NCBI GenBank assembly: GCA_951406725.2
Contig: OX597814.1
Coordinates: forward strand, 76,074,001-76,138,000
Source: Octopus vulgaris
Taxonomy: Eukaryota
Direction of reading: 5' to 3'
DNA: 64,000 nucleotides
This document shows positions 5,298-62,335 of the stretch, piece after piece. The notes beneath the pieces are model-generated. The model saw only the letters and a program-made list of their open reading frames with translations. It was not told the origin of the DNA and did no database searches. The translations under genes and the position numbers were made by a program. Position 1 is the first letter of the stretch; every line of letters starts with the position of its first letter.

Positions 5298-5578
5298 TAA
5301 ATCACAAATCTGAAAGAGAAACACACTCTAAGTTATACAGCAGTAGAGTATTTAGAGAATGTTAGTTATGCCTGGTTCATAGGCTTACCCAGAGTTTCAC
5401 ATCCATAAAGTGCTTAGCTTTACACACGTCTCATCAGACCCTAATGGCCAGTGGCCATTAGGGCTTGATGAGACACGGGCCATGAAAGTTTGATGAGAGA
5501 TTTTTAAAGATAAGTGCTTTATGGATGCGCAGCCCTGTGTAACCCTATGAACTGCCATAACTAACATTCACTAAATAC
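5298..5578. mobile_element. Fold-back PLE-type element, family F1 (copy 1)
   Basis: Palindrome centred on TAATGGCCA-G-TGGCCATTA (5451). The left tail ACAAATCTGAAAGAGAAACACACTCTAAG is shared with the 24.6 kb element. Confidence 0.8.
5380..5443 (-). ncRNA. Type I hammerhead ribozyme motif (core intact)
   Basis: Minus strand reads TAGGGT-CTGATGA-[stem II with TAAAG/CTTTA]-GAAA-CT ctg GG-TA-AGCCTA. The plus-strand mirror at 5459-5567 is degenerate (TTGATGA, GCAG). Confidence 0.75.
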
Positions 5579-7314
5579 ACACACACTCACACTCACACAC
5601 ACTCACACACACTCACACACACACACACCTCTTACCTTTTATATGTGTCAGTTGCTAGTCTTGCTGGGGCACTGCTTTGAAGAATTTTAGTCAAATGAAT
5701 GGACCGCTGTTCTTATTTTTTTAAAGCCTGGTATTTATTCTATCAGTCTCTTTTGTGGAACCACTAAGTAATGGGGGGTGTAAACAAATCAACACACATA
5801 CATATATATTCAACAGGCTTATTTCAGTTTCTGTCCACTAAATCCACTTACAAAGCTTTGGTTGCTCCAGACTATAGTAGAAGATACTTGCCTCGGTGTC
5901 ACACAGTGGGGTTAAACCCAGAACCATATGGTTGAGAAACAAACTCTTTACCACACAGCTACTTAAATTTTTTATCAATATATCCCAACTAACAGCTACA
6001 ATTGCAGACATTTTCATTTTCCTTTTTCATTTTTCTTCTAATTGATACTACGCTGGTTGCAAATTCTTTAATGATTTCAATTTACTAAACCTTTCAAAAT
6101 GTCTCACCACAAGAATTTTATTATAATTTTCCATATGAGGAAATAAAATTGAAAAAATAAGAAAGTAACTGAAAATTATTCTTTAAAGCAAGAACATTCT
6201 AAAAACTTAAACCTTTAAAAGACTAGAAGAAATGAAATAGTTGTTTTAATACCTGTGAAGTTGTACAAAAGGATGAATAAATTCAGAATCTGCAAATGTT
6301 AGGAAGATATTTCAAGGAACATTAGAATACTTAATTTACTATTATTATTATAACTTTATCTTTACTCTCAACAACAATACACACACATACAAATATAGAG
6401 AGAGGGTGGGGGAGAGGAGAGAGGAGGGACAGAGGGGCGACAGGGGAGGAAGAGAGAGGAGGAGCAGAGGAAGGGAGGGAGGGGAGAGAGAGAGATTAAA
6501 ATAAAAATGTAAAAGCAAAACGTGTGGTATCACTCAAAAAAGACATTTAATTTAGAGAGAGAGAGAGTATATCTCGCCACCTCTGAAAGGCAGTCTCAAC
6601 ATCACACTTTCGGTGGTAGAATTTTAGTGATAAACCAAACTGAGCACTCATAGTACATACCTATTACATTATATCAGTTGACAAAAACTCCTTATATATT
6701 CTATATATATATATATATAGTTTATCTGTTTAAAAACTCTTGTCTCATGTGTTTCCTTTCCATTCCATTCCTTCGCCAAATGATGTTGTGATGCTAAGCT
6801 AAGATTTTCTCGTTTTTTTTTTCCTTCATACTTCATTTGCCATTAACACTTTAATTATATTATTTACTAACTACTAACAGCTTGTTTTCATGAGCTAACC
6901 ATTGAAAATGTCCCCTCAAAAAATATAATTTTATCTCTCATGTAATTTCATTAAGATAATTACTCGTTTCTTCATCTGTTTAATCTCATTCTTATGACCA
7001 TTATTTTTGTCCTTCTGTCCCCAAACCAAACTGTGCTTGTTCGCAGTGCACCCGCCCTTTCCCACCCCCACCACCAATACCAGATATCTCTATCTTCCCA
7101 CCACCAATACTGAATATCTTTATCTTCCCACCATTTACACCGGATATCCCTTCTTCCACCACCATTACCCCGTGGCTATTCTCCCAACCCCTCATCCTCA
7201 CTGCGCTGTTCTCTATATATTACCTGTACTTCTCTCTCTCCTAGGACAAATGCAATCAGTCCAGCTGCTCATCCACCCACCCACTTAACTGGCTATCTTA
7301 CATTTTGTTCTGTA

Positions 7315-60135: not shown

Positions 60136-61771
60136 TTGTTGGTTCATGATAGACTGTTTATGTATGTATGCATGTATGTGTATGTGTGCATGTGTGTGAA
60201 TACATGTAGGTACATAAATGTGTGCTAGTGTTTGTTTATTGACATAAGTCAACTTACATTTCAGTAAACAAGGGACTATTGAATAATACCAGACTTAGAA
60301 AATAATTACTGAGGTTGATTTATTTGACTGAAACCCTTCAAGGCAGTCACACTTAGCCCCAGTATAGCCACACTTTGTTTCTTCTCATTTATTCTCCTTT
60401 ACACCTTCCTTTTACTCACTCCCAGTTTCTGACAGTAAGCATGAGCCTGCAGACTGACAGTGTTTGTCTGGTTAATAATTTGCCCTTCACAAACTACACT
60501 AAGGACAAAGCTTTTAATAATAACATGACTGCCCATATAGGCTTATTAGCCAGCTATTTTAAATTCATTTCAGAGAATAAACATCATTCTTTTGTTATGT
60601 CAATCATTCTAAAAAGAATCTTTCAGCACCTTTTAATGTAGCTATGAAGAACTAGTTTGGTTGCTTGACCCATCCATTCCACCTCAGCTGTCATTCTGTA
60701 TCAGAATGTTATAACTATCTACTTTATCTATTCATAGAACAGTGGATGTCCATATATTTAATACATGGAGCATTAAAAAGCTGAAGTATAATGAAATATG
60801 CAGTGAGAAAAAAAAAAAAACAATATTTGTTAGTCATCGACCAACTATGCTTTCATTGTTTTTTCTTTTATATTTTTCTGTCAAGTACAGGAGACAATCC
60901 TCTTCATATTTTCCCCTTATACAGTCATCAGCAATTGTGACATTATCAAAACATACCAAAGTCATAACAAAGGAATCCTTAAATAAATATACAGAGATGT
61001 ACTGACACAGGCATAGTTATATGGTTAAGAATATAGGTGCAAGTATGGCTGTGTTGTAAGAAGCTTGCTTTCCAACCACATGGCTCTAGGTTCATGGTAC
61101 CTTGGGCAAGTGTTTTCCACTATACCCTCAGGCCGGCCAAAGCATTGTGAGTAGATTTGGTAGACAAAAACTGAAAGAAGCCCGTTTGTATGTATGTATA
61201 TAGTCATGTGTATGTGTCTTTGTATCTGTTTGTTCCCCCTGCCATCACTGCTTGGCAACCGGTGTTGGTGTGTTTACATCCCCTGTAATTTAGCAGTTCA
61301 CCAAAAGGGTCTGATAGAGTAAGTACTAGACTTACAAAGAATAAGTTTCTTTTACTAAAAAAAAACCTTTAAGGCAGTGCTCCAGTGTAGCAGCTTGGGC
61401 AAGTGCCTTCTACTATAGTGTTGGGTTGACCAAAGCTTGTGGATGGATTTGGTAGACAGAAACTAAAGATCCCATTTTATATATATATATATATATATAT
61501 ATATATATATATATAATTTATATATATATTTCAATATGTGATCGCATGTGTATCGTTGGCGATTTTCTTTCTCCGTCTTCCCTTTCTTGGACCTTTCCTA
61601 TTTCTATGTTTCTCACAAAGAGCTCCATGCGAAACATTAAATCCTCCTTCTTTCTTTACATTCCTGAGTGTCCAATAACACTATACTTGTTCCATGTCCT
61701 CGTGTTGTGTTTACTCTTCGTTCATGTTTGATTAACTATATATATATATATATATGTATATATATATATTT

Positions 61772-62335
61772 ATAATATTAATAGTAATGGTAAGACAACA
61801 AAAGAGTGAAAGAGACCTCGATATTATGTAAATAGAGGAATTTATCTGTAATATAATATGTGACAATTATTTGGTTGCCATAATAAGACTCCGAGTTTTA
61901 GATGTCGGGGTGGAAACCTGCCCTGGCATCTCGTCAGTTATTGAGGCAATCAAAATATGCTATGGAAATGACCGTTAAACAAAGGGAAAGTACTATGTAT
62001 TTGACTGTTATTAAGACAAAAGAGCAATTAGAATGACCGTTAAATAAGGGGAAAAAACCAAAGGGGTGGAAGGAAAAAGTAAAGAAATATAAATGCTCAT
62101 AGCAAACGCTTCCTCCCCTTTGGTTTTTTCCCCTTATTTAACAGCCATTCTAATTGCTCTTTTGTCTTAATAACTGTCAATTACATAGTAATTTCCCTTG
62201 TTTAACGGTCATTTTCATAGCATATTTTGATTGCCTCAATAACTGACAAGATGGCAGAACAGGTTTCCACCCCGACATCCGAAACTTGGAGTCTTATTAT
62301 GGCAACCAAATAATTGTCACATATTATATTATATA
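61772..62335. mobile_element. Fold-back PLE-type element, family F5, inside (TA)n
   Basis: Arms ~61849-62072 and ~62108-62333, unique tail 61772-61848, (TA)n on both sides. Confidence 0.9.
62238..62298 (+). ncRNA. Type I hammerhead motif (mirror at 61882-61942, minus strand)
   Basis: AATAA-CTGACAA-GATG...CATC-C-GAAA-CT tgg AG-TC-TTATT. The mirror has intact CTGACGA but TAAAA in place of CGAAA. Confidence 0.78.

What the first reader, a model, noticed from the sequence alone, without database searches (positions are those of the whole stretch)
5298..62335. Five unrelated (TA)n-embedded fold-back families, each with a pair of outward-pointing hammerhead ribozymes
Seen: six elements (F1 at 5.3 and 24.6 kb, F2 at 20.0-22.4, F3 at 30.6-31.7, F4 at 50.6-51.3, F5 at 61.8-62.3) share one architecture, although I see no primary-sequence similarity between families. 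Each has a long inverted repeat in or beside simple repeats (TA in five of six), one arm extended by a unique tail, and a CUGANGA...GAAA...UH type I hammerhead in each arm, always on the minus strand in the left arm and the plus strand in the right. None encodes protein. Established: Penelope-like elements carry hammerheads in their pseudo-LTRs, make tandem/inverted insertions, and some prefer microsatellites. Inference: these are PLE termini or non-autonomous retrozyme-like RNAs mobilised by the PLE RT/GIY-YIG elements whose remnants lie in this window. The density (more than a dozen motifs in 64 kb) suggests a very large, probably unannotated ribozyme repertoire in this genome.
Basis: partly seen in the sequence, partly recalled or inferred. 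Interest (0 to 1): 0.85.

Follow-up and report, generated by a model that had tools for sequence, protein, structure and literature searches.

The report
Penelope-type insertion ends carrying hammerheads
The six hairpin-shaped repeats are real, but they are the known footprint of Penelope-like jumping genes, whose ends carry a small self-cutting RNA motif and are often pasted in head to head, here probably in an octopus; fewer than half of the motifs are still intact.

Summary
The architecture is real. All six elements have head-to-head arms (84-100% alike), one arm carries a 52-120 nt tail, and 10 of 12 ends meet (TA)n. A strict hammerhead descriptor finds 5 motifs, against 0 in 8 shuffles. 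Only 5 of 12 arms keep an intact core; the other 7 are decayed, mostly by CpG-type changes. Helix III is palindromic in all five families, as in dimer-type hammerheads of Penelope-like elements (PLEs). In four public runs F3 is a multi-copy family with no listed variant in the core, a palindrome-keeping double change in helix III, a steep 5'-to-3' depth rise and a step where the short arm ends. The window holds remnants of Hydra-clade PLEs; one ends in a decayed hammerhead 36 nt before (TA)n. Inverted 5' copy, tail, (TA)n targeting, opposite-strand hammerhead pairs and an Octopus Hydra element with the same motif type are all published. The outward pair is an insertion scar, not a two-ribozyme device: a read-through RNA pairs its own ribozyme away. 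Only F4, a 469-nt non-coding unit, points to a short non-autonomous element. Cleavage and expression are untested. Verdict: new members of a known kind.

The parts
5297..5580 (-). F1a: tail 5297-5351, left arm 5352-5450 with intact-core hammerhead (CTGATGA at 5437, predicted cut after 5386), perfect hairpin junction at 5451, decayed right arm 5453-5580 (+); set in (ATC)n and (CA)n
24572..24872 (-). F1b: tail 24572-24624, left arm 24625-24750 (core CTGACAA at 24711), hairpin junction near 24751, right arm 24752-24872 (+, core CTGACAA at 24791); both ends in (TA)n; same family as F1a, with three compensatory changes in helices I and III read from the alignment
20030..22444 (-). F2: tail 20030-20095, left arm 20096-20400 with hammerhead 20113-20163, 1.74 kb of simple repeats, right arm 22140-22444 (+) with hammerhead 22377-22427; arms identical; helix III a 16-nt near-palindrome; U.U at the base of helix II
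30565..31735 (+). F3: short inverted arm 30565-30995 (-, hammerhead 30593-30680), palindromic junction near 30990, 189-nt spacer that is an older tandem copy of the next stretch, main arm 31185-31618, tail to 31735; both ends in (TA)n
31500..31587 (+). Best hammerhead (F3): helix I 6 bp, CTGACGA 31506-12, helix II 7 bp with a 43-nt loop, GAAA 31570-73, palindromic helix III CGATCG, predicted cut after 31581
   Evidence: family variation
50594..51325 (-). F4: a 469-nt non-coding unit on the minus strand with an 83-nt terminal redundancy (50587-50669 equals 51056-51138 at 78 of 83), hammerhead relic at 50864 (AAAA for GAAA), plus an inverted arm 51137-51325 (+, relic at 51147, same defect); both ends in (TA)n
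61770..62329 (-). F5: tail 61770-61845, left arm 61846-62073 (core at 61937, GAAA box decayed), about 30-nt loop, right arm 62103-62329 (+, core CTGACAA at 62243); both ends in (TA)n
53280..56075 (+). Decayed, formerly coding Hydra-type PLE: RT, thumb, linker and GIY-YIG in five pieces (profile positions 173-708 of 712), about 720 nt of 3' UTR, decayed hammerhead at 55963-56045 with palindromic helix III, (TA)n 36 nt after the predicted cut
24888..25520 (-). N-terminal third of a Hydra-type PLE ORF (profile positions 4-229), breaking off at the right end of F1b
   Evidence: likeness by eye to Hydra-1_Obim
57370..57740 (-). Linker/endonuclease fragment of a Hydra-type PLE with the CxCX5C motif (CNCRIPSKC); weak profile match
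18870..19663 (-). Weak Hydra-type thumb/linker fragment preceded by an asparagine-rich frame

Best explanation
Each element is one insertion of the 3' end (pseudo-LTR region) of an endonuclease-bearing Penelope-like retroelement, most likely of the Hydra clade, or of a short non-coding RNA that borrows its machinery. Proposed steps. (1) The GIY-YIG domain nicks (TA)n [inferred; published preference]. (2) Reverse transcription starts at one of two fixed internal points, 23-37 nt (133 in F4) and 89-225 nt downstream of the hammerhead cut site, on RNA that is not cut there [end points shown; start sites inferred from the anole PLE assay]. (3) The first strand stops early, and its end folds back at a palindrome or microhomology and copies itself as far as the nearer point. 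This gives two head-to-head arms and a one-sided tail [junction palindromes shown in 5 of 6; the mechanism is inferred]. (4) The arms then drift apart, partly by CpG decay [shown]. The hammerhead is the dimer-type PLE motif: helix III is too short for a monomer but self-complementary. It would cut tandem or circular element RNA, perhaps only with protein help [inferred; untested]. The two motifs of one insertion lie on opposite strands and cannot work as a pair.
For: The anatomy matches the published PLE pattern point by point: inverted 5'-truncated copy, partial tandem, one-sided tail, microsatellite bias; head-to-head arms with palindromes at the junction; dual minimal hammerheads 100-700 bp apart on opposite strands with palindromic helix III. 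Helix III self-duplexes are -6.1 to -15.2 kcal/mol against 0 to -1.4 for the hairpin. F1a and F1b, two separate insertions of one family, both end 89 nt after the cut site, with short ends at 37 and 31 nt. In 4 of 4 runs F3 depth rises 16-94-fold towards the hammerhead and falls 1.5-2.8-fold where the short arm ends. None of 39 listed variable sites falls in the 13 core nucleotides or in helix II. Two changes in helix III keep the palindrome and have matching shares in all four runs: 0.41/0.38, 0.21/0.23, 0.49/0.49, 0.60/0.60. A Hydra-type remnant in the window ends in the same kind of motif 36 nt before (TA)n. Hydra-1_Obim is published with (TA)n preference and a hammerhead whose helix III is an odd palindrome like those of F1, F4 and F5. 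With both arms in one RNA, helix I and II pair probability is 0.0, against 0.24-0.55 without the antisense arm.
Against: No element is physically joined to a PLE ORF here, and no genome is held, so linkage to an autonomous partner is untested. Tails are 52-120 nt, longer than the published 30-40 nt. F5 has no junction palindrome (score 4), and F4's is weak (score 7, reached by 11% of random sites). The two helix III changes are both CpG-type transitions, their linkage is inferred from equal depths, and they may be a single event. An empty core of 13 nt is not significant alone at 39 sites in 740 nt, and 4 variant rows were not shown. Summed contig depth is not a copy number, and diverged tail variants (loose ends at 31631-33) add to the step. 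Most motifs fold no better than shuffles; of six arm motifs folded only F3 stands out, z=-3.5. The Hydra assignment rests on motifs and a profile, not on a tree.
Confidence: 0.85

Rival explanations
1. The arms were not made during insertion. Single PLE ends in (TA)n were folded back later by breakage and repair at the fragile TA tract, or homogenised by gene conversion.
For: All elements sit in or beside self-complementary microsatellite. F2's junction lies inside a TA-rich tract. Core defects shared by both arms (F1b, F4) could come from conversion.
Against: The short arm stops at a family-specific point (F1a and F1b agree; the F3 depth step), which random repair would not give. Flanking host DNA is not duplicated into the arms. 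Orientation is head-to-head in 6 of 6.
Confidence: 0.05
2. They are fold-back or MITE-type DNA transposons with TA targets that happen to carry hammerheads in their terminal inverted repeats.
For: Long inverted arms, TA flanks, no coding capacity. A true TA-flanked MITE and a mariner lie in the same window.
Against: The ends are asymmetric in 6 of 6, with 52-120 nt missing from one arm, so there are no matched transposase sites. F3 shows a retroelement-like 5'-to-3' gradient. F4 has a partial tandem.
Confidence: 0.03
3. The near-identical arms (F2, F3) are assembly or read artefacts.
For: F2 arms are identical over 305 nt, including about 100 nt of A/T runs; F3 arms differ at 2 of 434.
Against: Four elements with the same anatomy have arms 3-15% diverged, with CpG-context transitions (4 of 6 differences in F4, 5 of 11 in F1b). 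An artefact would not add a one-sided tail or pick out hammerhead-bearing ends.
Confidence: 0.03
4. The outward pairs are functional cassettes: transcription from the centre gives two RNAs trimmed by cleavage, or read-through gives long hairpins used by the host (editing or small-RNA substrates).
For: F3's core is conserved in its family. Read-through would give a 430-bp duplex. A bidirectional pLTR promoter has been suggested for rotifer PLEs.
Against: 7 of 12 cores are broken, and the damage follows arm age. Nothing ties the loci to a host gene. Helix III needs a same-strand partner.
Confidence: 0.04

Closest known systems
Hydra-clade PLEs, including Hydra-1_Obim of Octopus bimaculoides (Craig et al. 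2021, PMC8557442; section 11 and supplement rows seen)
   Same: (TA)n insertion; a 3'-terminal type I hammerhead close to the element's end with an odd-palindrome helix III; remnants in this window share the clade's motifs. By eye, the F5-left helix III equals that of the record printed just before Hydra-1_Obim in the supplement's sequence file.
   Different: Hydra-1_Obim is listed with 'no pLTR'. Here there are five unrelated non-coding end families with inverted arms and 52-120 nt tails, none joined to an ORF in this window. Their sequences differ by eye from the Hydra-1_Obim hammerhead.
Minimal hammerheads of metazoan PLE pseudo-LTRs (Cervera and de la Pena 2014, PMC4209133; parts 1-2 of 4 and supplement passages seen)
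   Same: Type I topology, palindromic helix III/loop 3, many unrelated families per genome, mostly ORF-less copies, pairs 100-700 bp apart on opposite strands.
   Different: Longer helix II/loop II (43-nt loop in F3), helix III palindromes of 8-16 nt; F3 has no extra base between positions 9 and 10.1. No cephalopod appeared in the passages seen.
Inverted pLTR + tail insertions of Penelope elements (Arkhipova et al. 2013, PMC3846280, passages and Discussion; Frangieh et al. 2024, PMC11167929, parts 1-2 of 4)
   Same: Head-to-head arms, palindromes at the junction, optional tail at one end. The tail is the distance between two RT start sites, and hammerhead cleavage was not needed for insertion in vitro.
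   Different: Those are coding Penelope/Poseidon elements with 30-40 nt tails; target duplications cannot be read here because of the microsatellites.
Animal non-LTR retrozymes (Cervera and de la Pena 2020, PMC7229834, passages; Li et al. 2026, bioRxiv 10.64898/2026.07.22.740005, parts 1 and 3 of 5)
   Same: Non-coding, type I hammerhead, unit size near 150-450 nt (F4: 469 nt), proposed PLE mobilisation; a U.U mismatch at the base of helix II as in F2 is known from axolotl.
   Different: Retrozymes are head-to-tail arrays with at least two same-strand hammerheads and circular RNAs. None of the six has two same-strand motifs; F4 holds only 1.18 units.

Membership tests
Type I hammerhead, PLE dimer type | CUGANGA, GAAA and UH boxes joined by helices I, II, III in type I order | tested here: met
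   Met in 5 of 12 arms, decayed in 7; 0 hits in 8 shuffles
Type I hammerhead, PLE dimer type | Short, palindromic helix III/loop 3 | tested here: met
   5 of 5 families; self-duplex -6.1 to -15.2 kcal/mol
Type I hammerhead, PLE dimer type | Core conservation and helix covariation within a family | tested here: met
   F3 in 4 runs: no listed core variant, palindrome-keeping double change; F1a versus F1b three compensatory changes by eye. Few events; not tested for F2, F4, F5
Type I hammerhead, PLE dimer type | Self-cleavage at the UH site | not testable with these tools
   Needs an assay; only contigs were available
EN+ Penelope-like element insertion | Inverted 5'-truncated copy in head-to-head orientation | tested here: met
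   6 of 6
EN+ Penelope-like element insertion | Tail on one end only (published 30-40 nt) | tested here: met
   6 of 6, but 52-120 nt long
EN+ Penelope-like element insertion | Partial tandem forming a pseudo-LTR | tested here: inconclusive
   Seen in 1 of 6 (F4); optional in truncated copies
EN+ Penelope-like element insertion | 5' truncation gradient | tested here: met
   F3 only: 16-94-fold rise in summed contig depth in 4 of 4 runs; depth is a rough measure
EN+ Penelope-like element insertion | RT + GIY-YIG ORF in the same element, or a shared pLTR with one | not testable with these tools
   No ORF within the six copies; no genome held, so longer family members could not be sought
Hydra clade | DKT, RW and CxCX5C protein motifs | tested here: met
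   For the remnants and their relatives, not for F1-F5: 12 of 15 long relatives have DK[T/S], 8 of 15 CxCX5C; CNCRIPSKC near 57.58 kb. No tree built
Hydra clade | (TA)n insertion with a canonical hammerhead | tested here: met
   5 of 6 elements. Neptune and Naiad also favour microsatellites, so this does not single out Hydra
Non-LTR retrozyme | Head-to-tail repeats with two or more same-strand hammerheads | tested here: not met
   0 of 6; F4 has 1.18 units with one motif on its sense strand
Non-LTR retrozyme | Monomeric linear and circular RNA | not testable with these tools
   No raw RNA reads could be laid
MITE / fold-back DNA transposon | Symmetric terminal inverted repeats reaching both ends | tested here: not met
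   One-sided tails in 6 of 6

The most novel reading that the evidence does not exclude
Several of these families (F4 above all, perhaps F3 and F1) are true short non-autonomous hammerhead RNAs, dispersed retrozymes, that Hydra-clade PLEs mobilise in trans. Their insertions carry the full PLE signature (TA target, two fixed start points, inverted 5' copy, more-than-unit length), which would be direct genomic evidence for the proposed but unproven PLE-retrozyme partnership. Dead cores shared by both arms in F1b and F4 would show in a natural setting that cleavage is not needed for a copy to jump. F3 would be a young, abundant, selected ribozyme family ready for assay.
Probability: 0.35. Interest if true: 0.6.

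Novelty: new member of a known kind. Interest (0 to 1): 0.36.

Why it matters
The system is known, so surprise is low. Its value is as material. Five unrelated families in 64 kb show the same PLE end geometry, which lets the two-start-site and fold-back models be tested on natural insertions in a clade (Hydra) that has had no mechanistic study in the papers I saw. Arm divergence dates each insertion. F3 is a good candidate for a first cleavage assay of a dimer-type hammerhead in this probable octopod. Rfam misses these motifs, and repeat pipelines could file them as MITEs. If F4 is a real 469-nt non-autonomous family, it would link retrozymes to PLE machinery by mechanism and not only by sequence trees.

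Tried and rejected
Rfam: 0 matches at gathering score; no hammerhead among 150 of 193 E-value matches shown, nearly all microsatellite-driven miRNA models; F3 alone gave one irrelevant hit at E 0.7. No genome is held, so consensus building and ORF linkage were not possible. Two exact-pattern scans of metagenome contigs (F3, F4) found 0 loci. A word-seeded protein search with the decayed endonuclease frame scored none of 93 candidates; the full HMMER search with the RT frame worked (491 hits at E 0.001 or better, 150 listed). Pfam named none of the 6 PLE-remnant frames (its 18 frames did give LINE, LTR-integrase and mariner domains) and gave GIY-YIG below cut-off for 1 of 8 relatives. Sequencing runs: no RNA holder listed. 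4 of 24 runs were laid, all contigs; no strand-change joint at the F3 junction was listed in any, so this inversion was not independently confirmed, and contigs cannot show absence. No start or end pile-ups were listed, which contigs cannot give. Single-strand folding did not separate five of six arm motifs from shuffles. In one search two helix III coordinates (F1a-left, Hydra remnant) were off and were redone. In one search the F2 left end was set inside the tail and was redone. A glutamate-racemase-like peptide at 523-570 (recalled likeness) had no Pfam support. Literature searches: 'hammerhead, ribozyme, cephalopod', 'retrozyme, octopus', 'Hydra, Penelope-like, hammerhead, mollusc' from 2022 and 'non-autonomous, Penelope, inverted, pLTR' listed no study of these families. 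The library lacks most subscription journals. The bioRxiv supplements of Li 2026 are closed, file 1 of the Cervera 2014 supplement was not searchable, and the O. vulgaris repeat library itself was not seen, so the families may already be catalogued. Work on dimeric cleavage of small PLE hammerheads by Lunse and colleagues is recalled only, not seen.
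Full report
SETTING. The window is 35% G+C animal DNA packed with microsatellites and mobile elements. 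No genome is held. Among 120 listed relatives of a LINE RT frame at 11.6-12.7 kb, the highest identity is to a protein named from Octopus vulgaris (74% over 70% of the query), so the host is probably an octopod (inference).

THE OBSERVATION. Six elements with inverted arms lie where stated. Arm identity is 84.5% (F1a), 90.9% (F1b), 100% (F2), 99.5% (F3), 96.9% (F4) and 93.7% (F5); CpG-context transitions make up 3 of 15, 5 of 11, 4 of 6 and 5 of 14 differences in F1a, F1b, F4 and F5. In 6 of 6 the motif reads outward, and one arm runs on for 52-120 nt. Ten of 12 ends lie within 4 nt of a TA tract (background 3.5% within 5 nt; ends placed by eye). F1a and F1b are one family; the 14 between-family pairs give nothing convincing (best z 4.0 and 2.9). 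None of the elements matches a PLE protein.

THE HAMMERHEADS. A strict type I descriptor gave 5 hits (F3 twice, F2 twice, F1a-left) and 0 in each of 8 shuffles; with one core change allowed it gave 14 hits against 0-2. A descriptor asking for a palindromic helix III and only CpG-type core damage gave 6 hits against 4 in total over 30 shuffles. The other seven arms are relics: CTGACAA in F1b (both arms) and F5-right, AAAA for GAAA in F4 (both arms) and F5-left, both boxes lost in F1a-right. Helix III is self-complementary in all five families. It forms a duplex with a second copy (-6.1 to -15.2 kcal/mol) but little or no hairpin (0 to -1.4). F1a and F1b differ by three compensatory changes in helices I and III, read by eye. 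Against this, only F3 of six arm motifs folds better than shuffles, and Rfam does not recognise any.

F3 OUTSIDE THIS ASSEMBLY. The stretch 30996-31735 is held, at 53-79% of its sampled words, by 20 of 24 listed runs from 9 studies and three organism labels. Four runs were laid, all contigs (921, 614, 389 and 71 pieces). Summed depth rises 16-94-fold from the junction to the hammerhead region and falls 1.5-2.8-fold at 31620/21, where the short arm ends. This is the pattern of 5'-truncated copies with an optional tail, though summed contig depth is no copy number and diverged tails add to the step. Of 39 listed variable sites (4 rows not shown), none is in the 13 core nucleotides or helix II; one is in loop II and one at the outer end of helix I (one variant keeps the pair, one breaks it). 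Two turn helix III from CGATCG into CAATTG, still a palindrome, with matching shares in every run. Both are CpG-type changes and may be a single event, but the other two CpG positions of that helix are not listed as variable.

END GEOMETRY. Measured from the predicted cut site, the short arm ends after 37, 31, 23, 34, 133 and 36 nt and the long arm after 89, 89, 89, 154, 225 and 117 nt (F1a, F1b, F2, F3, F4, F5). The two F1 copies are separate insertions yet share both end points. Every insertion therefore extends past the cut site, so the template was not cut there. Junctions are perfect hairpins in F1a and F1b, a 16-bp quasi-palindrome in F3, a TA tract in F2, a weak 10-bp palindrome in F4 (11% of random sites score as well) and a plain loop in F5. 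In F4 the last 83 nt of the tail recur 469 nt upstream on the same strand (78 of 83): 1.18 units of a non-coding repeat plus an inverted arm. This is the one sign of a short non-autonomous unit; with one copy it could also be an internal deletion or a template jump.

POSSIBLE PARTNERS. The frame at 53280-53687 finds 491 proteins. The 15 longest of the 150 listed look like Hydra-clade PLEs: DK[T/S] in 12, CxCX5C in 8. A profile of these maps an RT-to-endonuclease remnant at 53328-55232(+) in five pieces (E 3e-12 to 3e-26; the first piece is circular, being the query), an N-terminal fragment at 24888-25520(-) (E 2e-14) and weak fragments at 57370-57740(-) and 18870-19291(-). The endonuclease frame resembles a GIY-YIG cluster by language-model features (0.94; 63% of members carry PF01541). 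The large remnant is followed by about 720 nt of UTR, a decayed hammerhead with palindromic helix III at 55963, and (TA)n 36 nt after the cut site, the same spacing as the short arms. None of F1-F5 resembles this 3' end in sequence.

WHAT IS KNOWN. Craig et al. 2021 (PMC8557442; abstract, passages, section 11, supplement rows) describe partial tandems, an inverted 5'-truncated copy, a 30-40 bp one-sided tail and microsatellite bias as general PLE traits, and Hydra elements as (TA)n-inserting with canonical hammerheads. Their supplement lists Hydra-1_Obim from O. bimaculoides, (TA)n, with a hammerhead at 2403 of 2507 whose helix III is an odd palindrome. Cervera and de la Pena 2014 (PMC4209133; parts 1-2 of 4) report thousands of minimal motifs per genome, palindromic helix III, low activity in vitro, and pairs 100-700 bp apart on opposite strands. 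Arkhipova et al. 2013 (PMC3846280; passages and Discussion) note head-to-head arms with junction palindromes and propose self-priming. Frangieh et al. 2024 (PMC11167929; parts 1-2 of 4) show two internal RT start sites that define the tail, protein-assisted cleavage, and insertion without cleavage. Cervera 2020 (PMC7229834; passages) and Li et al. 2026 (bioRxiv; parts 1 and 3 of 5) define retrozymes as tandem arrays and propose PLE mobilisation. PLEs are put at 6.83% of the O. vulgaris genome, 190 families (PMC13282606; passages and a supplement row). A squid genome paper counts 235 hammerhead_1 loci (PMC6962438; passages).

MECHANISM AND VERDICT. Shown: arms, tails, TA ends, fixed end points, motif structure, decay, F3 family variation, PLE remnants. 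Inferred: nicking at (TA)n by a Hydra-type endonuclease, internal priming at two sites, early stop with fold-back, and dimer-type cleavage of tandem or circular RNA. The outward pair is best read as a scar. The motifs are on opposite strands, and a transcript across both arms of F3 loses helices I and II entirely (probability 0.0 against 0.24-0.55). Core defects shared by both arms (F1b, F4) suggest that broken ribozymes were copied (chance of parallel decay about 6% and 2%, from very few sites), unless conversion or a variant consensus explains them. The elements work like PLE 3' ends and pass the tested PLE criteria; they fail the array criterion for retrozymes and the symmetry criterion for MITEs. 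New here are the families themselves, tails longer than published, and a candidate 469-nt non-autonomous unit. Cleavage, expression and ORF linkage remain untested. New member of a known kind; interest 0.36.

Noticed in passing
window 1-760: A stretch of 18% G+C with an inverted repeat (373-500 / 604-731, 95%) around a 103-nt core; the core's short frame recalled a glutamate racemase start, but Pfam gave no support. Origin unexplained.
   Followed up: partly
window 22462-24012: Mariner-type element (Mos1 HTH) with TA-flanked terminal repeats, inserted in the TA tract right of F2 and interrupted by an element of about 750 nt holding telomere-like TTAGGG repeats at 23293-23460.
   Followed up: partly
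window 19886-20002: A 117-nt structured insert between two TA tracts just left of F2, with several small hairpins (z -1.9 and -2.4) and no hammerhead core; unclassified.
   Followed up: partly
window 61530-61736: A 207-nt pyrimidine-rich insert between TA tracts left of F5, with a possible heavily decayed hammerhead near 61612(+); not recovered by either descriptor.
   Followed up: partly
window 26100-26500 (-): Possible decayed minimal hammerhead near 26260(-) in a pyrimidine-rich stretch about 730 nt upstream of the Hydra N-terminal fragment; it could be that element's 5' pLTR. Read by eye only.
   Followed up: partly
window 24873-24888 and 19163-19663: F1b abuts the broken end of a Hydra ORF fragment, and F2 lies about 370 nt from an asparagine-rich frame next to another; this may reflect PLEs inserting into older PLEs. 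N-rich inserts are described for rotifer Penelopes. Two cases only.
   Followed up: partly
window 29634-29878 and 29898-30297: A TA-flanked MITE with 12-bp terminal repeats, followed by a separate fold-back (171-nt arms, 84%) without a hammerhead hit, whose arms hold a word like a CTCF site (recalled, untested).
   Followed up: no
window 39703-43461, 35441-36223, 17660-17986: A long, nearly continuous RT element with C-terminal restriction-like endonuclease features ending in (TAA)n (Hero/R2-like, label recalled), with two further 3' fragments.
   Followed up: no
window 16510-17156, 37937-38550, 43570-44233, 44602-45156: Four young copies (91-99% alike) of a repeat of about 500-600 nt bounded by (AAT)n tracts; it holds two CTGANGA words but gave no hammerhead hit.
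   Followed up: partly
window 24602-24625 and 5310-5345 (F1 tail): By eye, an 8-letter word and neighbouring letters about 40 nt after the cut site in F1 recur at a similar distance in the Hydra record printed before Hydra-1_Obim in Craig 2021's supplement; suggestive only, not tested.
   Followed up: no
window 947-1882; 7310-8545 and 11066-12683: LTR-retrotransposon integrase remnant, and two copies of an RT+PHD LINE in opposite orientation.
   Followed up: no
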